Part shown: piece after piece, positions 2,493 through 19,940 of the stretch
Numbering within the stretch: position 1 is the stretch's first letter
Layout of the letters: each line of letters starts with the position of its first letter
Assembly: GCA_000165345.1 (NCBI GenBank)
Contig: CM000434.1
Span: forward strand, 640,001-704,000
Direction of reading: 5' to 3'
Length of the DNA stretch: 64,000 nt
Position numbers and translations under genes: made by a program
Notes under the pieces: generated by a model
The model's database searches: none
What the model was told of the DNA's origin: nothing
Seen by the model: the letters and a program-made list of their open reading frames with translations, nothing else

Positions 2493-3956
2493 TTAATTGG
2501 TTGTCCTAGTTAGCTCAAGCTTGCTCCTCAGTTCTTCATTTTCTTTCCTCAGAATTTCCAATTTACGAACAGAAACGTCTAATAAGCTAACTAAAACAGC
2601 GTTTTGTTCCTCACTTTTCTCCAACTCATCCATTAGATATTCAATCTTCTCCCTATCACCTCCTGCTTTAAGCTTATCTTTAATTCCTTGCAGAATTTTC
2701 CTGCGAATTAGGCTATCTAGACCTGTCTTGAACTCTTCTATAGACTGATCTGCCTTTTTAGGCTCTTGATCCTCCGCTAAAGACTGTGGTTTCCGGGTTT
2801 CTGAAGATTTTTGAACCAAGGCTCCAATATCAGATAAAGCAATAGAATGCGAGCTACTGCAAACAACTTGAACAATATTCTTGTTTTGTAAGATTGGGTG
2901 TTTAGAAGGCATATTTGGATGTATTCCTTGAATTCCATGTCCAATATTTTTTGTCATACCCCAAGTATATATATCTCCAACATCGGAAAGAGCTACTGAA
3001 TGGGAATTACCGCATGAGATATCCACAATAAACGCTTTTTCGAGGTTAGAAAGTCTTTTTGGGGACAAAAAGTCGTGTTCTGGACCATTAAAAATGTGGC
3101 CAAGTCTTCCTCCTTGTCCCCAAGTATATACCTTGCCACACTTTGTGACAGCAGCTGAGTGTTGACTTCCTAAAGAAACCTTTGTTATCTGAATATCTTC
3201 CAAAGGTCCTTCTAATAGTCTTGGAATCAAAACGTCGTCAGTTGACCCAAAGCCAAGCTTTCCAAAAGCCCCTCCTCCGAACATATATAACTTTCCAGTA
3301 ACAAGCAAAATTGCTGTGTGATGTCCTCCACATGATATCTCTTTAATTGGAAGCCCTGCCAAACTTTCTATAAGCTTTGGAGTAAATATATCTTGAGTAT
3401 CTCCATGGCCTAATCGTCCTTGGAGCCCCAGACCCCAAGTTAATGCCTTTTTATCATCAGTTAAACACCCTGTATGGTAACTTCCGCATGAAACCTGTAT
3501 TACTTTCTCTCCTTCCAAAGCTTTAACTTTCATTGGTTGGGAGACTACATTATTTGAAATACTTAACTCAAATTGTCCATGCCCAAGCTTGCCATTTTTA
3601 CTACAACCCCAAGTATAAAGCTCACCATTACTCAAGATTGCTGCTGTATGTCTATCGGAGCAAGCAACTTGAATAACATTTTTAAGACTTAGATTTACTC
3701 TAGGTACCAAACAATCCTCTAAATTACCAAAACCTAGTTGGCCGCATCCTCCATATCCCCATAGGATTAAATCACCAGAATTTGTTATTGCTGCTGAGTA
3801 ATTTGACCCACAGCTTACCTTTGATATGCTGCTTAGATGTCTAAGTCCATCAACTAGATGTGGCCCGGGACTTACTTCCTCGCCTTTAGAACCATGCTGT
3901 CCATATTCGGTTGAACCCCACACCACTACTCCAGATTTTGATAAATTCTGTCCCAT
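2493..3956 (-). CDS. RCC1-repeat protein with N-myristoylation signal and C-terminal coiled coil
   Basis: 487 aa. Repeated WG.GG.GQLG / GHG motifs fit a seven-blade RCC1 propeller. The protein begins MGQNLSK, an MGxxxS myristoylation consensus. The C-terminal 90 aa are heptad-rich. Confidence 0.8.
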   Translation of the reverse strand: MGQNLSKSGVVVWGSTEYGQHGSKGEEVSPGPHLVDGLRHLSSISKVSCGSNYSAAITNSGDLILWGYGGCGQLGFGNLEDCLVPRVNLSLKNVIQVACSDRHTAAILSNGELYTWGCSKNGKLGHGQFELSISNNVVSQPMKVKALEGEKVIQVSCGSYHTGCLTDDKKALTWGLGLQGRLGHGDTQDIFTPKLIESLAGLPIKEISCGGHHTAILLVTGKLYMFGGGAFGKLGFGSTDDVLIPRLLEGPLEDIQITKVSLGSQHSAAVTKCGKVYTWGQGGRLGHIFNGPEHDFLSPKRLSNLEKAFIVDISCGNSHSVALSDVGDIYTWGMTKNIGHGIQGIHPNMPSKHPILQNKNIVQVVCSSSHSIALSDIGALVQKSSETRKPQSLAEDQEPKKADQSIEEFKTGLDSLIRRKILQGIKDKLKAGGDREKIEYLMDELEKSEEQNAVLVSLLDVSVRKLEILRKENEELRSKLELTRTTN

Positions 3957-4412
3957 CCTCGAATTTTAGTCAAACACAGGTATTAGTTTTCAAATTCACA
4001 ATATTATCTGAATTCAATAGCCGATGAACAATTTCCGATTATTTCTTGTTCTAAAAATTATATATTTAAATTTCACTTTGAAGTTCTTACTTTATTAGAA
4101 ATTGATATTCATGAGCAAATTGAAGTAGGTTAAGAATTTTTAGCTCGAGGGCTTTAGACTATTTCATCGATATTAACAAATAGAAATTCCTTTACTAGAA
4201 ATGTCAATGTTTTCTAATTTGCAGTATTTAATGTTGAATTTTTTTTGATCTTTTGTGCGCTAAAATTCATTTACATTTTTTACTGTGAGTGCCTCATTTC
4301 TTAGAGAACAGAGAAATAAAAGAATAAGATTTTGCTCTTGAAGAATTTTGATTAGAAATGAATTATCTCTAAAAGTTGTTCAACTCCAGATCTTGTTTAC
4401 GAGAAAATCAAA

Positions 4413-6611
4413 ATGTACGAAATTGAAAGTCACTTTTTTGAAAATAAACTACAAAGCTGGTTCTCTAAAACTTGTATTTCTAACTTCCCAGAAATTCAAA
4501 AACTCATTCTAGAATTTTTATTCAGCTTTAAAACATCCCAAAAACTTTCTTTAGTTAATAAAGAAGGTCTTTCCTTCTACAGAAGTATCCAAAAGGCAAC
4601 TTTGGGATGCATTAAGGAACTGAATACGCTTGAACACCAAACATGGATGAACTCAAACCCAGATTTGTGGCTATCTTGGTTATTAATGGGCAGAAATAAT
4701 TCTAAAGAGAACGATACTTCAACTCTTATTCCATTGGATCCGAGAATTGTCATGAGGATTTTGTTTAACTTTAGGAAGCTTTATCCTGTAAGCTATAAAA
4801 CCAGAATTATCAAAGACACTAATGGGGAACCATTTTTAAATGTTGAACTTTCAGCTATTTCTCTTGGAAATCTGGAAAATGATCTTGAAGACCCAAAAAA
4901 ACCTTTCTCCTCTATATATGACATGTTTTCTTCTAAAAGAATGGTTTTTGGTGTTGACTTGGTATATGGACAAAGAATTTACCAATTTGACTCTGAAAGA
5001 GACTCTGGAAGTGGAGAAATTATAATTAGTGTTCAACCTGAACATATTTTTGATGTTTTATCTCATAAAGAATTCTCTGAACACCTTTACTCAACCCTAT
5101 TAGGACTTGAAAGAAAATTTTGTTTAGGAGACTGGTCAGGTTACTTTAGTAATAATGCAGGGAAGGAAATGTATGGAAAATTCATGAAATCAGTTTTACT
5201 CCCTCTGAAGACTTTTGAGAAAACTTGTAGAAGGCCAACCTTTCCCTTTGTTTCCATTCTTGCTACTTCACATTTATGTAAAGGAAGAGAAGCTGGACGA
5301 GGATCCGAAAATATCAAATCTTCACTTTACGAATCTTCTATAGATCTTCTGGAAGAGATGTCTCACCAAGTTCTGGATGACTCTAGCTGTAGTAGGATGG
5401 TTGAGGATGCTATATTATACAAGTCTCCATCTTTTGCATTCTTTTTAAGCTCCTCCTGTCTAACAGAAAGTACATTCCAGCTCATTATTGACTCTGTTTC
5501 TCAGAAAGAAAAAAGTTTCTTTCTTGGTAAAAATTTGGAGCCTCTGGAAGAGCTTTATGAGACAAATCAATTGGATCTGGTTTGGGAGAATTTTGATGAG
5601 AATTCTCCTCTATTTAAAAATAGTTACAAAAGTAAGCATAGGCCACCATGGAGAACTTCTATTGATAATATTATCAATGCAATGCAAGAAAAGCAATCCC
5701 AAATCATTTCCCAGCAACCTTCCATTGCCTTCAATCATCAGACACTTAGAAATGATGCTGGACATATTAGTAGAGTAAACAGGCCCTCTTTTAGCTATTC
5801 TAACGAAAATTCAAGCACCGAAAGAAACTTCGAACATGATGATAACGATGAAGATAGAACTTATCTTGATGAAGGAAACTCTTTTGATATTTCTCCAAGT
5901 TCAGAACAAAACCATGTGGAAAGTCCAAGTCTTGTTGCTTCTGGGTTTGTCATGGGAGTTAGATGTCTTCCTGCATCTACAGCTATCACTTCTTTAGGAT
6001 CAATTATTGGAAATGGAAATCCAGGTCGTTCTGGTTCAATTAATAGAGTTAGAGGAACGAATTTGTTGGGAAATCAAAGTCAAAGATTATCCATTCCTCG
6101 TTCTGATATAACTGGGAGATTAAGTTCGTGTCCTACATTTAGTTCAATTGCGACAAGTTGGGGTACTCCAGTTCCCATCACTAGAACAATCCCAATTGAT
6201 GATATTCTTGGAAGAAGAAGAGAATCAATTCATAGTACTCTGGATCCAGAAAAAAACGATCAGAATGAACTAATTCTCAGTGAGATTAGAGTTAAATATA
6301 ATTTGGATAGTGATGAGGACGAGGTTCAAAATGGAAAGAATCTTATTAATGGCAAAGATAAGGATGAAGAATCGGAGAATTTTAAAGATAAGCAAAAATT
6401 AGATATTTATCATTTAGAGGAAAAAAGTAATAGCGAACTTGAACAGGCTTTAATTGAAGAAGAAGTTTTGGGATCATTTACTAATATGCAAATCAAAGAC
6501 TCTGATGCATCAATTCTTGCAAAGGAAACCCTAAAATCCTGGAAATATGTCAATTATGACTTTGATGAAGAATTGGAAATGGAGTCGGAGGAATATGAAA
6601 ATGAGGAGTAA
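4413..6611 (+). CDS. hypothetical protein with an acidic C-terminus
   Basis: 732-aa uninterrupted ORF; no family recognised by eye. Confidence 0.5.
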   Translation: MYEIESHFFENKLQSWFSKTCISNFPEIQKLILEFLFSFKTSQKLSLVNKEGLSFYRSIQKATLGCIKELNTLEHQTWMNSNPDLWLSWLLMGRNNSKENDTSTLIPLDPRIVMRILFNFRKLYPVSYKTRIIKDTNGEPFLNVELSAISLGNLENDLEDPKKPFSSIYDMFSSKRMVFGVDLVYGQRIYQFDSERDSGSGEIIISVQPEHIFDVLSHKEFSEHLYSTLLGLERKFCLGDWSGYFSNNAGKEMYGKFMKSVLLPLKTFEKTCRRPTFPFVSILATSHLCKGREAGRGSENIKSSLYESSIDLLEEMSHQVLDDSSCSRMVEDAILYKSPSFAFFLSSSCLTESTFQLIIDSVSQKEKSFFLGKNLEPLEELYETNQLDLVWENFDENSPLFKNSYKSKHRPPWRTSIDNIINAMQEKQSQIISQQPSIAFNHQTLRNDAGHISRVNRPSFSYSNENSSTERNFEHDDNDEDRTYLDEGNSFDISPSSEQNHVESPSLVASGFVMGVRCLPASTAITSLGSIIGNGNPGRSGSINRVRGTNLLGNQSQRLSIPRSDITGRLSSCPTFSSIATSWGTPVPITRTIPIDDILGRRRESIHSTLDPEKNDQNELILSEIRVKYNLDSDEDEVQNGKNLINGKDKDEESENFKDKQKLDIYHLEEKSNSELEQALIEEEVLGSFTNMQIKDSDASILAKETLKSWKYVNYDFDEELEMESEEYENEE

Positions 6612-15035: not shown

Positions 15036-17129
15036 ATGGAGCTACTACCAAATTCAGTGGAAGATTTTACAAGTAGTGAATACTGGAGTGAGTTCTTTAA
15101 GAAGTATGGAGGCGAAAGCAACCGAGCATTTGAATGGTATGGAGACTTTGAGGTTCTGAGGGACCTTTTGATACAATCTTTACGTAATAGTGGCAGGTCA
15201 GAACTAGACAATAAGAGGATTTTGCATGTAGGATGTGGAAATTCCACTCTTCCAGCTAAATTGTATGATGAAGGTTTTACAGATATTACAAACATTGACT
15301 TTTCAAGTCAGATTATTGAGTTAATGAGAGAAAAAAATAAGTCCAGGGAAGGATTAAAATGGGTTTGTATGGATATTGAGAAGGACTTTGGTGATTACGT
15401 TGAGAAGGCGGAAAATTTGGGAAAATTTGATACGATTATAGACAAAGGGTTTTTGGATGCTTATTTATCAGACAGTACATCTGAGAATGGACTTTCTTCA
15501 AGAAAAAAATCAACTGATTTTTTGAATTCATCCATTAATCTTTTAGCTCCAAATGGAAGGTATATTTTGATTACTCTAGGCCAGGAGTATGTAGCTAAAG
15601 CTTTAACTATGGGGTTATATAATAAAGGTCTTGAGGTTATTGTTGAGCCTTTAGTTGGAATTAAAGATTCAAAGTTTCTTCCATATTATATTGAGATTAT
15701 CAATAAAAGTGATTTTCAGAATTTTGAGAAGTCATTTTTTAGATTCAGAGGATCTGGGACTGAGGAAATTTGTAGTGCTGAAGGTCAGTGTATTTGGACT
15801 TTAGCAAAAAGACTTAAGGAGCTTTCTGCTATGTTTTGGAATAACAAATATATTGGTGATTTTATGCCAGGAGAAATAAAGGAATACCAGCTTAATATAA
15901 AGGAATCCAAGAATAGCCTTTTTATCACTGTATATGATACAATGAGCAAAGAAAAGAAAAGAAAGCTTACAGTAGGTCTTCTCGTACCTTTAGGAGAGGA
16001 GCAGGATTGGCTTTATTCTACAAGAAAGGGGTTTGAAGAAATCTGTAGTCAAGCCAAGTGTAAGAGATTAATTGTGATTTCAAGATTCTATTCAGATTCA
16101 GAGGAAGCTTTGAAAGTAAGTGAACAGGAAATCCTGGATGAAATTTCGAATAATATCTCTCCTTTAGCTTTAAAAGGTTCTAACAGATTTCCTATTCTAA
16201 CTGTAGGCGGAGACAAGAATCTAGACAAAAAATGTATTTATAGCTGTGATTCAAAGTACTCTAAGGAAATACTTGTTTATGATATTCAAGAGTCTGGTAT
16301 TGAGAAGAGACAAATGATTTTCAGGTCAAGCCCAAGACTTATTCAGTCTGAAGTAGTAATTCGAAGAAATGATTCGAAAACAATTGAAATTGACTATTTA
16401 AGTGGGTTTTCAAATTATTATGTAGGAGTTATATTGGTTTCAAGTCTTATTTTGGATACTAAAAATCAAGACAAAACGAGAAACGCTCTCATTTTAGGCT
16501 TAGGAGGAGGAATCTTAGCTTCAATATTGAGAAAGTTTTATTCAAAGCCTAAACTCCATATTTCTGCAGTTGAAATTGATGAGAATGTAATGAATGTAGC
16601 GAAAAATTACTTTGGATTTTCTGAAAGTGAAACCAAAGTTATTATTGGAGATGCACTGGACTATGTTAATAACAATTATTTAGAGATTAAAGACTCTCTG
16701 GATTATATTATTGTAGATATTAACTCTGGAAATGTGAATGATTCTCTTATGTGTCCAGGAGTAGAGTTTCTTTCTAAAGGGTTTATAGAGAAGCTAATTG
16801 TTTCTTTAACAAAAGATGGTTGTATTGTTTATAACGTTTCATGCAGAGACTCTAATAGAAGAGAAGAGCTTTTTAATGAATTTAGAGATTTGTTGAATAA
16901 AATGGAAGAGAAAACTAATTCCAAAAGAATGATTCTTCAGGCAGTGGAGACAGGAGATGATGAGATTAATGAACTATGGATAATCAAAAGAGAAACAAAT
17001 GATAATATTGAAAAAGTTAGAAACTTTATAATAGAAAATGAATTATTTATAGGTAGTCAGGAAAATACATCTTTAGAGACATATGATAAAAAGGATCTCT
17101 GGATTAAGAGGTTCTCAAATCTTAAGTAG
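15036..17129 (+). CDS. METTL13-like dual methyltransferase (eEF1A-KNMT family)
   Basis: 697 aa. The N-terminal class I SAM methyltransferase has motif I ILHVGCGNS. The C-terminal spermidine-synthase-like MTase has ALILGLGGG...VEIDENV. Confidence 0.75.
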   Translation: MELLPNSVEDFTSSEYWSEFFKKYGGESNRAFEWYGDFEVLRDLLIQSLRNSGRSELDNKRILHVGCGNSTLPAKLYDEGFTDITNIDFSSQIIELMREKNKSREGLKWVCMDIEKDFGDYVEKAENLGKFDTIIDKGFLDAYLSDSTSENGLSSRKKSTDFLNSSINLLAPNGRYILITLGQEYVAKALTMGLYNKGLEVIVEPLVGIKDSKFLPYYIEIINKSDFQNFEKSFFRFRGSGTEEICSAEGQCIWTLAKRLKELSAMFWNNKYIGDFMPGEIKEYQLNIKESKNSLFITVYDTMSKEKKRKLTVGLLVPLGEEQDWLYSTRKGFEEICSQAKCKRLIVISRFYSDSEEALKVSEQEILDEISNNISPLALKGSNRFPILTVGGDKNLDKKCIYSCDSKYSKEILVYDIQESGIEKRQMIFRSSPRLIQSEVVIRRNDSKTIEIDYLSGFSNYYVGVILVSSLILDTKNQDKTRNALILGLGGGILASILRKFYSKPKLHISAVEIDENVMNVAKNYFGFSESETKVIIGDALDYVNNNYLEIKDSLDYIIVDINSGNVNDSLMCPGVEFLSKGFIEKLIVSLTKDGCIVYNVSCRDSNRREELFNEFRDLLNKMEEKTNSKRMILQAVETGDDEINELWIIKRETNDNIEKVRNFIIENELFIGSQENTSLETYDKKDLWIKRFSNLK

Positions 17130-17148: not shown

Positions 17149-17799
17149 TCATTGTTTACTGCTTGATAAGTATAATTGAATATGATATATTTTTCTCTGT
17201 TCATCCCAATATGTTTGAGTTCTTTGCTTAATTAGCTCTATATTTGGAATTCTTATTCCAATAGTATTATAAGGTTCAGCTCCCACAAATAAGTATTGGT
17301 ATTTCGGGTTAGGTTTTTCAACCTTTTGTTCCCAACAAGACATGATTCTGTAACCAGGAATATGATCCTCAAGAATTTCTTGGAAATAGAATTTGCAATA
17401 TACACAGTTAGTACCAGTTGACCCTTCTCTATGCTTGGAGACTTTATATTTTGGTTGTCCTATCCTTGGAGCTCTTGGCTTAGCTTGCTCTGGATTTTCA
17501 GCCTGAGGTTTCACAACAGCCTTCAAATTTTTCTCTTTGGATGCTCTATATGCCAGATTTGTTTGGTGTTTCCTTCCTTGAGTATGAGACAAATATGATC
17601 CCTCATTTGTGTGAATTGTAGAACAAAGTCTGCATTCAACTTGTCCAAGGTGGTTCTTCATATAGTAAGGATCCTTAGAAAGATCTATGGACTCTAGAGC
17701 AAGCCTCCTAAGTCTCTCTCTCCTCTCAATTGCAATATCCTGGGAGCTCGCCAGAGCTCCACTACCCGTTTTGTGGCCTCCTCTGTTTTCATAGTCCAT
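17149..17799 (-). CDS. SF3A2: splicing factor 3a subunit 2 (SAP62/Prp11)
   Basis: 216 aa. RERLRRLALESIDLSKDPYYMKNHLGQVECRLCSTIHTNEGSYLSHTQGRKHQTNL is a near-exact match to the SF3A2 matrin-type C2H2 zinc finger and N-terminal region. Confidence 0.85.
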   Translation of the reverse strand: MDYENRGGHKTGSGALASSQDIAIERRERLRRLALESIDLSKDPYYMKNHLGQVECRLCSTIHTNEGSYLSHTQGRKHQTNLAYRASKEKNLKAVVKPQAENPEQAKPRAPRIGQPKYKVSKHREGSTGTNCVYCKFYFQEILEDHIPGYRIMSCWEQKVEKPNPKYQYLFVGAEPYNTIGIRIPNIELIKQRTQTYWDEQRKIYHIQLYLSSSKQ

Positions 17800-17848
17800 T
17801 TTCTCTTTTAAGTAGAGTCATTTTCTATTAGTTTTTTTTCACAGCACC

Positions 17849-17872
17849 TTGGCGCCAATTGCGCCAAAATAA
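17849..17872. promoter_or_regulatory. tandem E2F-like TTGGCGCCAATTGCGCCAAAAT in the divergent SF3A2 / HAD-phosphatase promoter
   Basis: 50 bp upstream of the SF3A2 ATG (minus strand) and 220 bp upstream of the HAD exon 1 ATG. Confidence 0.5.
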
Positions 17873-18092
17873 TATGCAAGTTCACGAGCATGAATTTGCT
17901 GAAATAAAAGGAAGAAAAAAAATGGTTGAAAAATGAATACATATTCATCTGTTTAGGTTAATATACAATAATCAAGGTCTTAATTAGGGTAACTCTGAAA
18001 GTTGTACTTATTCAATTTTTGGAGTTTTGTAAATTAGATTACTATTTTTAGATTTAGGAAAGCTTGGTCAGCTATTACTTAATCAAGAAAAT

Positions 18093-19521
18093 ATGGTCAG
18101 AGTTCAGTTGTTTTACAATTCCTCATGGGAACGAGTCTTTTTTTACAGTGATGAGCAAGAAAACCTTTTTGATAATGAGCAGAAGTGGGTATTTAGAGAA
18201 ATGAAACCATTAGAAGAAAATTTGGACTGGCATACAATCGAGTTGGAAACAAAAAGGTATGTTGTTTTTTGAAGAATAGGTCTGAAAAGTTAACTTTCTA
18301 CTATTTAGAGCTTTTTTGGAGTTTGTTTTGTGTAATACTGAGAAAACAGAATGGGACAATCCTCCTAGTTCATATGGTAGAAAAAATTACTTTATTAGTA
18401 TCAAAGATGCAGAGAGGGAGTCAGGAAAAGATGCCAAAAAAGGTCTAAAATTTTGTCTAAAGGATGGAAACTTAAGCCATATAGTTTCAAGACCTCCAAT
18501 TGCAATTGTAACAGACTTGGATGGAACTTTGATAGGACATGACGAGTATTTGAAGATGTTCAATGAGATTTGGATTAGACAGCATATGTTCAATAATTCC
18601 AAATTAATCTACTCAACTGGTAGGAACCTCAAAGATTTCCTCCTTGCAGCAAAGCAATTCAATCTTCTTAGACCTGACTATGCAATTTGCGGGGTAGGAA
18701 CAGAAATATATGAATTTCCAAATAAAGAAATGAATCTTGAGACATTTTGTCAAAGGTTATCCAATACTATAGGAAGGAATGTAACAAAAGAGGAATTATT
18801 TTCCTTGTTGAGATTCCAGGACATGGGGGAGCGTGTTGAAACCAAGGAGGGAGACGAGGAGAAAGTGACCAAAGATGTGAATCCCATGTTCCCAAGATGG
18901 TGCAAAAGCAGGTTATTTGCTTGGCCTGTGGATAAGTGGTTGGAAATCATAAGAAAAACATTCAACAGAGATGAATTGAAAAAAGAAATTCAAGAAAATC
19001 TGAACAAGATCGGTCTAGAATATTACATTAATGGAAACAACTTTCATGATCCATTTCGTCTATCAGTATCCATCAAAACAGAATATGCTTTGAAAGTGTA
19101 TGAGGAAATACAAATAAACAAAAAAAGCTATAGGTTCGCCATTAGCGGACAAGGAGCATGGAAATATTTAGATGTGCTTCCTGATAAAGGTGGAAAGCAC
19201 TTATCTATAATATTTCTCCAAGATGAGATTCTAGGAAATTCTATCCCTTTGGAAAGGTTTCTGGTATGCGGAGACTCTGGAAATGACGCTCATATGTTTA
19301 CAATCGAGACATGCAAAAACTGTTGTGTCGGAAATGCTCAACAGGATCTCAAGGATTTCTTATTAGGAGGTTGCCTAGTGAACAGTGATGAGCCTGAGTC
19401 AAGAAAAGTCTTGAGTAGCCAGAGTGAGCTCCTATGTAGAATTATGGCTTGCCAGAATCTGAAGCCTCCAAAAAAAGTAAGTTTTACTCCAAAAATGTCA
19501 TTTTGTATTTCACTCAATTGA
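18093..19521 (+). CDS. HAD-superfamily sucrose-phosphatase-like hydrolase with an extra N-terminal exon
   Basis: Exon 1 is 18093..18256 (MVRVQLFYNSSWERVFFYSDEQ...). The intron 18257..18308 has a GTATGT donor and TATTTAG acceptor. Exon 2 is 18309..19521. HAD motif I IVTDLDGTL and motif IV GDSGND are present. The ORF track started at an internal TTG at 18316. Confidence 0.65.
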
Positions 19522-19940
19522 ATCTGAACTTGATTAGGTTTTCATTTCTATGTTGCCAAATGCTGGCGGAATTATTCAAGCATTAATACATAATGATTTT
19601 ATCACCTATAATATCGACAGTCCAAGCAGTTGATTAGACTTTGGTTAAGTCGGAAACTTGGGTAGCTTTAAAGCCAGATACAGGTCCCGATTCGAATGAG
19701 GGGCCCAAGAAGACGGGGGATCGGAAATATTGAGTATATCTCTGATACTCAACTCCTTTCAAATGATAAGTATATCAGACACTCAGCTATCTTTCTTTCT
19801 CTTTATCTCTCTCTTTCTTTTCTCTATAATAGTTGAAATCCTTCCTATCATTACATCCAATATATTCTAAACGGCTACTATCCGAATATGGGAATAGATA
19901 GCTAATAATTCGCTACCGAGTCTCATATATAAGGCAAAGA

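What the first reader, a model, noticed from the sequence alone, without database searches (positions are those of the whole stretch)
18093..18308. Extra 5' exon on the sucrose-phosphatase-like HAD enzyme, possibly a carbohydrate-binding module
The ORF track begins this gene at an internal TTG. An upstream exon (18093..18256) spliced through a 52-nt intron adds 55 aa: MVRVQLFYNSSWERVFFYSDEQ...WVFREMKPLEENLDWHTIEL. The pattern is a beta-strand-rich Trp/aromatic module reminiscent of CBM20/CBM48 starch-binding domains. A CBM fused to a sugar-phosphate phosphatase would tie the enzyme to amylopectin or trehalose metabolism.
Basis: inference. Interest (0 to 1): 0.5.

Follow-up and report, generated by a model that had tools for sequence, protein, structure and literature searches.

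The report
Starch-binding module on a sugar phosphatase
The extra 5' exon is real but already in public Cryptosporidium annotations (gene cgd6_2840); with the start of exon 2 it encodes a divergent, unannotated CBM25-type starch-binding module fused to a sucrose-phosphatase-like enzyme, which probably ties that enzyme to the parasite's amylopectin stores.

Summary
An ATG exon (18093..18256) joins through a 52-nt GT..AG intron (18257..18308) to the ORF that the track started at TTG 18316. I also found a second, 61-nt intron (19477..19537). Together they give a 475-aa protein identical to deposited C. parvum models of cgd6_2840, so the exon itself is not new.

The carbohydrate-binding idea is right in kind but wrong in family and boundaries:
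- Exon 1 encodes only the first four strands of the module. The module spans about residues 1-113, across both exons.
- A profile of 28 homologues hits solved CBM25 structures (E=9.4e-7).
- No member hits the CBM20 or CBM48 models.
- The residues aligned to the CBM25 ligand residues are conserved: W32 and Y18 in exon 1; W70, N72 and N81 in exon 2.

The catalytic domain is an intact HAD-IIB phosphatase, closest to cyanobacterial sucrose-phosphatase. It fails NCBI's sucrose-phosphatase equivalog threshold and carries Asn at a Ser needed for sucrose-6-phosphate activity. Its substrate is therefore open.

The fusion is conserved across apicomplexans and dinoflagellates. The gene is about 7-fold up in female gametes. 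Interest is moderate: the gene model is known, the domain assignment appears new, and the function is untested.

The parts
17800..18092 (.). A 293-bp divergent intergenic region between the SF3A2-like gene (17149..17799, minus strand) and this gene. It contains an E2F-like palindrome TTGGCGCCAA (17849..17858) followed by TTGCGCCAAAA (17859..17869).
   Evidence: A GGCGCC motif is also present in the equivalent region of chipmunk genotype I and C. canis, and GGCGCT in C. muris. A promoter role is inferred, not tested.
18093..18256 (+). Exon 1 holds the start codon and residues 1-54 plus 2 nt of the Arg55 codon. It encodes strands 1-4 of the CBM25-type module. These include W12, Y18 (aligned to His26 of B. 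halodurans CBM25), W32 (18186..18188, aligned to ligand-platform Trp34) and W46.
18257..18308 (+). Intron 1 is 52 nt, GTATGT...TTTAG, phase 2. An in-frame TGA lies just upstream of the point where the exon-2 frame opens (18289).
   Evidence: the old partial model starts inside it. The intron has the same position and phase in the deposited C. felis (51 nt) and C. muris (108 nt) models. It is less conserved than exon 1 in the C. canis and C. felis comparisons, with 7 and 13 gap columns.
18309..18483 (+). The first part of exon 2 encodes residues 55-113, the second half of the CBM25-type module. It includes F60, V61, the W70-D71-N72 motif (W70 at 18352..18354), N81-Y82, a helical insert specific to the C. 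parvum-like species (residues 86-99), and the last two strands with G108.
18484..19476 (+). The rest of exon 2 encodes a short linker and the HAD-IIB sucrose-phosphatase-like catalytic domain. Motif I is D124-L-D126-G-T128 (18514..18528). Motif II is S157-T158-G159-R160-N161. The motif III lysine is K351. Motif IV is G376-D-S-G-N-D381. A large cap insertion spans about residues 195-260.
19477..19537 (+). Intron 2 is 61 nt, GTAAGT...ATTAG. The ORF track and several deposited models read through it to a spurious ...VSFTPKMSFCISLN* tail.
19538..19633 (+). Exon 3 encodes residues 444-475, VFISMLPNAGGIIQALIHNDFITYNIDSPSS, plus the TGA stop. This is the conserved C-terminal strand and helix of the HAD core.
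   Evidence: It aligns to the C-terminus of Synechocystis sucrose-phosphatase, SHAGAILEAIAHFDFL. The 10-residue blocks covering residues 431-460 average pLDDT 93-98 in the full-length model. It is conserved in C. muris, C. felis, C. canis and chipmunk genotype I.

Best explanation
The window is Cryptosporidium parvum and the gene is cgd6_2840. Its pre-mRNA is spliced at two short introns to give a 475-aa, two-domain protein.

Residues ~1-113 form a divergent CBM25-type starch-binding beta-sandwich. This module exists only after intron 1 is removed. Exon 1 supplies the start codon, strands 1-4 and one half of the predicted sugar-binding platform (W32, Y18). Exon 2 supplies strands 5-9 and the other half (W70, N72, N81).

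Residues ~119-475 form a catalytically intact, Mg-dependent HAD-IIB phosphatase of the sucrose-phosphatase (S6PP) family. It has the Asp124 nucleophile, Asp126, Thr158, Lys351, Asp377 and Asp381.

Inferred mechanism: the CBM holds the phosphatase on alpha-1,4-glucan (amylopectin granules or soluble maltodextrin), so that it dephosphorylates a small glucose-containing sugar phosphate at the site of storage-glucan turnover. The gene is induced in female gametes, which lay down amylopectin for the oocyst.

What is shown: the gene structure, the fold, the family relationships, the conservation of residues aligned to ligand-binding and catalytic residues, and the stage-specific expression.

What is inferred: actual glucan binding, granule localisation and substrate. 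My preferred substrate class is a di- or oligosaccharide phosphate rather than sucrose-6-phosphate, but this is the weakest step.
For: Gene model:
- The splice sites give a 475-aa product that is identical to deposited proteins.
- Intron position and phase are conserved in the deposited C. felis and C. muris models.
- Exon 1 shows a codon-position-3 substitution bias, and the intron is less conserved with more gap columns in two of three comparisons.

CBM25 assignment:
- The family profile hits PDB CBM25 2c3v at E=9.4e-7 and 2laa/2lab at about 3e-4.
- Eight of 28 members hit Pfam CBM_25 and four hit CBM53.
- The profile search of 1.84 billion representatives puts bacterial multi-CBM25 GH31, GH13 and CotH proteins among its top hits, interleaved with members of this family. 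The matched stretches coincide with Pfam CBM_25 calls.
- hhalign against those CBM25 repeats gives 99.0% probability and E=4.4e-18.
- The B. halodurans CBM25 ligand residues W34, W74, H26, N76 and D81 (PMC4625611) align to W32, W70, Y18 (His in most homologues), N72 and N81. W32 is invariant, and W70 and N81 are at least 90% conserved.

Phosphatase:
- Pfam S6PP scores 129.6 bits.
- All four HAD motifs are invariant.
- The full-length model has pLDDT 90.3 and pTM 0.91.

Biology:
- C. parvum stores amylopectin.
- cgd6_2840 rises from 5.69 to 8.46-8.90 log2 CPM in females, logFC 2.77. In the same study 22 amylopectin and trehalose enzymes are female-induced.
Against: - No individual family member reaches Pfam's CBM_25 gathering score. 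The best among the ten full-length members scored is 23.7 bits against 27.3.
- The C. parvum sequence alone gives no CBM hit. The assignment therefore rests on profiles and a predicted structure.
- The His26 position is Tyr in the C. parvum-like species, and D81 is Asn.
- No binding assay, localisation or enzymology exists for this protein.
- I could not inspect model coordinates. Whether the CBM site and the active site face the same way is unknown.
- The A4 set used for hhalign was chosen from hits of the A1 profile, so that test is not fully independent.
- HAD-IIB enzymes with a closing cap normally take small substrates, which argues against the polymer itself being the substrate.
- I had no RNA-seq junction reads.
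Confidence: 0.8

Rival explanations
1. The protein is a genuine sucrose-6F-phosphate phosphatase that makes sucrose, as its database name suggests. The N-terminal module would only be an accessory.
For: The best Pfam and NCBIfam matches are sucrose-phosphatase models. The closest solved structure is Synechocystis sucrose-phosphatase. The catalytic motifs are intact.
Against: - The score against the TIGR01485 sucrose-phosphatase equivalog is 100.1 bits, with a cut-off of 183.65. The score against the SPP subfamily model is 73, with a cut-off of 107.15.
- Ser44 of the Synechocystis enzyme is Asn161 here and in at least 90% of the family. In Arabidopsis SPP2 the equivalent S54A change abolishes activity (PMC5113954).
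- From general knowledge, not tested here: apicomplexans are not known to have sucrose-phosphate synthase or to make sucrose.
- A starch-binding module has no obvious role in sucrose synthesis.
Confidence: 0.07
2. It is a HAD-family glucan or phospho-maltodextrin phosphatase. On this reading the CBM25 docks on amylopectin and the active site removes C6 or C3 phosphate esters from glucan chain ends or released phospho-oligosaccharides. It would then do the job of laforin or SEX4 in a parasite that lacks laforin.
For: - Cryptosporidium makes amylopectin but lacks laforin (PMC2064834 and PMC2714694).
- The sucrose-phosphatase fold has a glucose-binding cap next to the phosphate site (PMC5113954). 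That could accept a glucosyl residue adjacent to a phosphorylated sugar.
- The high pTM of 0.91 for the two-domain model suggests a fixed inter-domain arrangement (this is an inference).
- The gene is induced in females.
Against: - There is no biochemical evidence.
- Capped HAD-IIB enzymes generally exclude polymers.
- Eimeria has both this protein and laforin (E. tenella is among the five protists reported in PMC2064834; this detail is from my memory). The two are therefore not simply alternatives.
- I did not verify that Cryptosporidium has a glucan water dikinase.
Confidence: 0.12
3. The N-terminal beta-sandwich no longer binds carbohydrate. On this reading it is a degenerate Ig-like domain used for protein-protein contacts or simply for folding of the phosphatase.
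Against: - The residues most conserved across about 30 divergent homologues are those aligned to the CBM25 ligand contacts. W32 is invariant, and W70, D71, N81 and Y82 are at least 90% conserved.
- Tyr can still stack or hydrogen-bond with sugar.
Confidence: 0.08
4. The upstream ORF is a chance open frame and the intron is not spliced. The real protein would then start inside exon 2.
For: A 59-codon open frame in DNA of about 33% GC arises by chance with probability of about 1% per position (my estimate). The early annotations XP_627632.1 and CAD98573.1 omitted the exon.
Against: - No in-frame ATG precedes the catalytic Asp in exon 2.
- The exon, the splice sites and the intron phase are conserved across the genus.
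- The encoded half-domain is conserved out to dinoflagellate transcripts.
- Without it the beta-sandwich is incomplete.
Confidence: 0.02

Closest known systems
CBM25 starch-binding modules of bacterial amylases, for example Bacillus halodurans amylase G-6 (PDB 2C3V/2C3W) and Paenibacillus polymyxa beta/alpha-amylase (2LAA/2LAB)
   Same: - Profile-level sequence similarity is significant (E=9.4e-7; hhalign 99%).
- Residues align to the Trp-Trp platform plus the polar contacts (W34/W74/H26/N76/D81 aligning to W32/W70/Y18/N72/N81).
- The W-D-N and N-Y motifs are shared.
   Different: - This module is eukaryotic, presumably intracellular, single-copy and N-terminal. It is attached to a phosphatase, whereas known CBM25s are attached to secreted glycoside hydrolases of families GH13, GH14, GH31 and GH119 (PMC4625611).
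- Individual members score below Pfam's family threshold.
- It has WDNPP instead of WDNN in most members.
- The C. parvum-like species carry a 14-residue helical insert.
- The coding sequence is split by an intron.
Sucrose-6F-phosphate phosphatase of cyanobacteria and plants (Synechocystis slr0953, PDB 1S2O; Pfam S6PP; TIGR01485)
   Different: - It fails the equivalog and subfamily score cut-offs.
- The motif II Ser is Asn.
- It has a cap insertion of about 60 residues (my estimate from the alignment).
- It has an N-terminal CBM25 in place of the plant C-terminal S6PPc dimerisation domain.
- The host is not known to make sucrose (general knowledge).
Glucan phosphatases laforin (CBM20 + DSP; PDB 4RKK) and SEX4 (DSP + CBM48; 3NME)
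   Different: The catalytic domain here is an Asp-nucleophile HAD, not a Cys-based dual-specificity phosphatase. The CBM family differs. Activity on glucan is untested here.
CBM53 repeats of starch synthase III (Arabidopsis, Ostreococcus)
   Same: These are eukaryotic, intracellular starch-binding modules related to CBM25. The equivalent Trp/Tyr binding positions are shared (PMC4625611). Four of 28 family members give weak CBM53 hits.
   Different: The matches are weaker than to CBM25 (best E=0.0046 against 4.8e-6). CBM53 occurs as tandem repeats on a glycosyltransferase.

Membership tests
CBM25 (CAZy family; Pfam PF03423) | Significant sequence similarity to established members | tested here: met
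   The family profile hits PDB CBM25 2c3v at E=9.4e-7 and 2laa/2lab at about 3e-4. Hits among 1.84 billion representatives include Pfam-confirmed CBM_25 repeats. hhalign gives 99.0% probability and E=4.4e-18.
CBM25 (CAZy family; Pfam PF03423) | An individual sequence passes Pfam's gathering score (27.3 bits) | tested here: not met
   C. parvum gives no hit. The best among the ten full-length family members scored is 23.7 bits (P0046). As isolated domains, 8 of 28 members hit with a best E of 4.8e-6. This is a divergent subfamily detectable only by profile or structure.
CBM25 (CAZy family; Pfam PF03423) | A beta-sandwich fold of about 90-100 residues that superposes on solved CBM25 | tested here: met
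   [not shown]
CBM25 (CAZy family; Pfam PF03423) | Conserved ligand-binding residues (Trp34, Trp74, His26, Asn76, Asp81 of B. halodurans CBM25) | tested here: met
   By alignment these correspond to W32, W70, Y18 (His in most homologues), N72 and N81. Two of the five are conservative replacements in C. parvum.
CBM25 (CAZy family; Pfam PF03423) | Demonstrated binding to starch or alpha-glucan | not testable with these tools
   This needs a pull-down or ITC with the recombinant domain.
   None of the 28 members hit the CBM20 or CBM48 Pfam models at E up to 10. One member gave a weak CBM_21 hit at E=0.18.
   [not shown]
Sucrose-6F-phosphate phosphatase (EC 3.1.3.24; TIGR01485 equivalog) | Membership of the Pfam S6PP family and the HAD-IIB fold | tested here: met
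   [not shown]
Sucrose-6F-phosphate phosphatase (EC 3.1.3.24; TIGR01485 equivalog) | Score above the curated equivalog or subfamily cut-offs | tested here: not met
   TIGR01485 scores 100.1 against 183.65. TIGR01482 scores 73 against 107.15. The Eimeria and Polarella homologues also fall below.
Sucrose-6F-phosphate phosphatase (EC 3.1.3.24; TIGR01485 equivalog) | HAD catalytic motifs I-IV (DxDxT, S/T, K, GDxxxD) | tested here: met
   D124, D126, T128, G159, R160, K351 and G376-D381 are invariant in 38 sequences.
Sucrose-6F-phosphate phosphatase (EC 3.1.3.24; TIGR01485 equivalog) | The motif II Ser (Ser44 in Synechocystis, Ser54 in AtSPP2) required for sucrose-6-phosphate hydrolysis | tested here: not met
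   The position is Asn161 here and in at least 90% of the family. The S54A change inactivates AtSPP2 (PMC5113954).
Sucrose-6F-phosphate phosphatase (EC 3.1.3.24; TIGR01485 equivalog) | A partner sucrose-phosphate synthase in the genome, and activity on sucrose-6F-phosphate | not testable with these tools
   I held only a 64-kb window and no enzyme assay.
Glucan phosphatases (laforin / SEX4 / LSF2) | A dual-specificity phosphatase domain with a CX5R catalytic loop | tested here: not met
   The catalytic domain is a HAD. No DSP family was hit.
Glucan phosphatases (laforin / SEX4 / LSF2) | Dephosphorylation of glucan-bound phosphate | not testable with these tools
   This needs an assay on labelled phospho-amylopectin.

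The most novel reading that the evidence does not exclude
cgd6_2840 and its myzozoan orthologues could be a previously unrecognised class of glucan or phospho-maltodextrin phosphatase. This class would be built on a HAD (Asp-nucleophile) catalytic domain with a CBM25 anchor. It would supply the dephosphorylation half of reversible amylopectin phosphorylation in Cryptosporidium, which stores amylopectin but has no laforin. That would be convergent with laforin and SEX4.
Probability: 0.12. Interest if true: 0.7.

Novelty: new member of a known kind. Interest (0 to 1): 0.38.

Why it matters
Cryptosporidium oocysts and sporozoites depend on amylopectin as their energy reserve. The enzymes that control this store are candidate determinants of oocyst survival and infectivity.

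Recognising that cgd6_2840 carries a starch-binding module changes its status. It moves from a vaguely named "sucrose-phosphatase-like hydrolase" in an organism not known to make sucrose to a likely granule-associated phosphatase. It is conserved from Cryptosporidium and gregarines to Eimeria and dinoflagellates, and it is induced in female gametes.

The result gives a concrete, testable hypothesis about its location (W32/W70-dependent glucan binding). It also narrows the substrate search to glucose-containing sugar phosphates or phospho-glucans.

There are practical lessons too. Truncated models, such as the old 411-aa and 321-aa entries and bacterial-style ORF calls, remove half of a domain and the start codon. 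Several deposited Cryptosporidium models still miss the last exon. The gene model itself adds nothing new.

Tried and rejected
- Single-sequence searches of the C. parvum N-terminus found nothing meaningful. Pfam gave only Poxvirus_B22R_N at E=0.15. PDB phmmer gave PsaL at E=0.6 and a lectin at E=2.1. The CBM assignment became visible only with a family profile (A1).
- CBM20 and CBM48 were rejected as the family. No member hit those models, and the structural scores are lower.
- The 55-aa exon as a self-contained module was rejected. It covers only strands 1-4 of a nine-strand sandwich.
- A genuine sucrose-phosphatase was considered and down-weighted, because the equivalog cut-off is failed and Ser is replaced by Asn.
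- Literature searches found no paper that describes this protein or a CBM25-phosphatase fusion. The searches were Cryptosporidium + sucrose-phosphatase; CBM25 + apicomplexa; CBM25 + phosphatase + HAD; sucrose phosphatase + CBM + dinoflagellate; and cgd6_2840. The gene appears only in supplementary expression tables.
- The AFDB fold library was unavailable.
- The Plant Cell 2005 structure paper for sucrose-phosphatase could not be read. I therefore could not compare the sucrose- and glucose-binding residues of the cap.
- Model coordinates are not exposed, so I could not analyse the geometry between the CBM site and the active site.
Full report
**Source and setting**

The window is AT-rich (about 30-37% GC), gene-dense, eukaryotic DNA. 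The spliced product of the gene in question is 100% identical over its full length to Cryptosporidium parvum proteins. The accessions are QOY41168.1, WRK32888.1 and KAL5368159.1. [quoted passage not shown] Its neighbours are a methyltransferase/spermidine-synthase-like gene (15036..17129, plus strand) and an SF3A2-like gene (17149..17799, minus strand). Both are syntenic in C. felis, C. canis and chipmunk genotype I.

**Checking the observation**

The ORF list starts the phosphatase ORF at TTG 18316, which is not a eukaryotic start codon. An ATG ORF begins at 18093. I verified base by base the following structure:
- Exon 1 is 18093..18256, which is 164 nt, or 54 codons plus 2 nt.
- The intron is 18257..18308, which is 52 nt, GTATGT...TTTAG.
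- Exon 2 starts at 18309.
- The join is in frame through a split Arg codon, reading ...HTIELETK-R-AFLEFVLCNTEKTEWDNPP...

It runs 19477..19537 (61 nt, GTAAGT...ATTAG). Exon 3 (19538..19633) encodes VFISMLPNAGGIIQALIHNDFITYNIDSPSS*. The resulting 475-aa protein equals the deposited model exactly.

**Is the exon real?**

Several independent lines say yes.

1. No alternative start. Exon 2 has no in-frame ATG upstream of the catalytic DLDGT motif. The old 321-aa model (CAD98573.1) starts at the first Met, which lies after the nucleophile. The 411-aa Iowa II model (XP_627632.1) is flagged partial and begins inside the intron.

2. Conserved signals. A DNA alignment with chipmunk genotype I, C. canis and C. 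felis shows the ATG, the GT donor and the AG acceptor conserved.

3. Coding-type divergence. Exon 1 mismatches fall mainly at codon position 3. The counts for positions 1/2/3 are 6/3/12, 8/5/21 and 12/11/31. Its only indel is in-frame (3 gap columns, in C. felis). In the C. canis and C. felis comparisons the intron is less conserved than exon 1 and has 7 and 13 gap columns. In the chipmunk comparison the intron is about as conserved as the upstream region.

4. Conserved intron position. In the deposited C. felis and C. muris models an intron sits at the same position and phase, splitting the same Arg codon. The lengths are 51 and 108 nt, against 52 nt in C. parvum.

5. Deep conservation of the peptide. 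The encoded N-terminus is found in gregarines, Eimeria, Cyclospora and dinoflagellates. Several of those proteins come from transcriptome assemblies, in which the N-terminal domain and the phosphatase are on one mRNA.

I had no RNA-seq reads, so direct junction evidence is missing. The comparative case is nevertheless strong.

**What the N-terminus is**

Alone, the C. parvum N-terminus hits nothing meaningful in Pfam or the PDB. I aligned the N-terminal regions of 28 homologues (alignment A1). The alignment shows a Trp-rich pattern: Y8, W12, W32, W46, F60-V61, W70-D71, N81-Y82 and G108.

Five kinds of evidence place the domain in CBM25:
- **PDB profile search.** The A1 profile hits Bacillus halodurans amylase CBM25 (2c3v) at E=9.4e-7. 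It hits Paenibacillus CBM25-1 and CBM25-2 (2laa, 2lab) at about 3e-4. CBM26 structures match more weakly.
- **Pfam scan of members.** Eight of 28 members hit CBM_25 (best E=4.8e-6) and four hit CBM53. None hit the CBM20 or CBM48 models.
- **Exhaustive profile search.** A search of 1.84 billion representatives gave 284 hits. Bacterial proteins with 3-13 tandem CBM25 repeats are among the top hits, interleaved with members of this family; they are GH31 glucosidases, a GH13 amylase and a CotH protein. The matched stretches coincide with Pfam CBM_25 calls.
- **Profile-profile comparison.** hhalign of A1 against six of those repeats gives 99.0% probability and E=4.4e-18. The six were selected from A1's own hits, so this test is not fully independent.

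**Ligand-binding residues**

The B. halodurans CBM25-maltotetraose complex uses W34, W74, H26, N76 and D81 (PMC4625611). Through the profile alignment these map onto C. parvum as follows:

| B. halodurans CBM25 | C. parvum | Conservation in the family | Encoded in |
|---|---|---|---|
| W34 | W32 | invariant | exon 1 |
| W74 | W70 | at least 90% | exon 2 |
| H26 | Y18 | His in most other members | exon 1 |
| N76 | N72 | Asn in most members (consensus WDNPP) | exon 2 |
| D81 | N81 | at least 90% | exon 2 |

The model places strands 1-4 in exon 1 and strands 5-9 in exon 2. Neither exon alone encodes a module, and the predicted sugar platform is assembled only from the spliced product. The family is CBM25-like, not CBM20 or CBM48. 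The module is about 113 residues across both exons, not the 55-aa exon.

No individual family member reaches Pfam's CBM_25 gathering score. The best among the ten full-length members I scored is 23.7 bits against 27.3. This probably explains why the precomputed domain lists show only the HAD families.

**The catalytic domain**

The full-length model has pLDDT 90.3 and pTM 0.91. Much of the exon-3 segment (residues 444-475) is predicted confidently: the 10-residue blocks covering residues 431-460 average pLDDT 93-98, and it includes a helix at 452-462. That segment aligns with the C-terminus of the Synechocystis enzyme, which supports intron 2.

The protein nevertheless does not pass as a true sucrose-phosphatase:
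- It scores 100.1 bits against the TIGR01485 equivalog cut-off of 183.65.
- It scores 73 bits against 107.15 for the SPP subfamily.
- The motif II serine (Ser44 in Synechocystis, Ser54 in AtSPP2) is Asn161 here and in at least 90% of the family. The S54A change abolishes AtSPP2 activity (PMC5113954).

The enzyme should be an active phosphatase, but its substrate is not established.

**Biological context**

C. parvum stores amylopectin. It is reported to lack the glucan phosphatase laforin (PMC2064834 and PMC2714694).

In sorted-stage RNA-seq, cgd6_2840 averages 5.69 log2 CPM in asexual stages. It averages 8.46 in females in vitro and 8.90 in females in vivo, a logFC of 2.77 (PMC6877471, supplementary file 4). 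In the same study 22 amylopectin and trehalose enzymes are female-induced. I could not confirm whether this gene is among those 22. No paper in the searchable library discusses the gene or a CBM25-phosphatase fusion.

**Most likely mechanism**

Splicing creates a protein in which a CBM25-type module anchors a sucrose-phosphatase-like HAD phosphatase to alpha-1,4-glucan. This concentrates phosphatase activity at amylopectin granules during their synthesis in macrogametes and later mobilisation.

The sucrose-phosphatase fold has a glucose-binding cap next to the phosphate site, and capped HAD-IIB enzymes take small substrates. I therefore favour a glucose-containing di- or oligosaccharide phosphate as the substrate. 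Sucrose-6-phosphate itself is less likely. Direct action on glucan-bound phosphate is possible but speculative.

The architecture and the conservation are shown. Binding, localisation and substrate are inferred.

**Comparison with known systems and verdict**

It works like other CBM-tethered enzymes of storage-glucan metabolism, such as laforin, SEX4 and the starch synthase III CBM53 repeats. It is not a member of the glucan-phosphatase family, because its catalytic domain is a HAD rather than a dual-specificity phosphatase.

It is a divergent member of CBM25 by profile, fold and binding-residue criteria, although it is sub-threshold for Pfam. It is a member of the S6PP/HAD-IIB family, but not a demonstrable sucrose-phosphatase equivalog.

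The exon is already annotated. The domain assignment appears to be new but unsurprising in kind. Overall the interest is moderate.

Noticed in passing
window 19477..19633; L002 ~4400..4520; L004 ~2935..3030: There is a second, 3' intron (61 nt) and a short conserved last exon (VFISMLPNAGGIIQALIHNDF...). The ORF track and several deposited models read through this intron. These are C. canis P0003 (459 aa), C. felis P0007 (451 aa), C. hominis KAL3127633.1 and C. sp. 43IA8 (458 aa). The conserved exon is present downstream in C. felis and C. canis, so those models appear to be mis-annotated at the 3' end.
   Followed up: yes
window 17849..17869: An E2F-like palindrome TTGGCGCCAA is followed by TTGCGCCAAAA in the 293-bp divergent intergenic region between the SF3A2-like gene and cgd6_2840. 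A GGCGCC motif is also present in the equivalent region of chipmunk genotype I and C. canis, and GGCGCT in C. muris. TGGCGCCA occurs 5 times in the window (10360, 14982, 17850, 26094, 62830).
   Followed up: partly
window 18309..18483 (residues 86-99): The C. parvum-like species (C. parvum, chipmunk genotype I, C. canis, C. felis) carry a charged insertion of about 14 residues (KDAERESGKDAKK). It is predicted as a helix between two strands of the CBM25 sandwich. It is absent from C. muris, C. xiaoi, coccidia, gregarines and dinoflagellates.
   Followed up: partly
proteins P0050 and P0135 (Effrenium voratum and a related representative): Some dinoflagellate gene models fuse Pumilio (PUF) repeats upstream of the CBM25 plus sucrose-phosphatase-like unit. 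These are probably merged neighbouring genes rather than a real three-part protein.
   Followed up: no
proteins P0066, P0069, P0074 and others (bacterial, ~690 aa): The more distant bacterial hits to the phosphatase domain are fusions of an S6PP domain with GH100 (alkaline/neutral invertase) and GDE_C-type domains. They combine a sucrose-phosphatase-like domain and an invertase-like domain in one polypeptide.
   Followed up: no
hit list: Orthologues were recovered from Cryptosporidium, gregarines, Eimeria, Cyclospora and dinoflagellates. None came from Toxoplasma, Neospora, Sarcocystis, Plasmodium or piroplasms. This suggests lineage-specific loss, but the search is word-seeded, so absence is not proven.
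   Followed up: no
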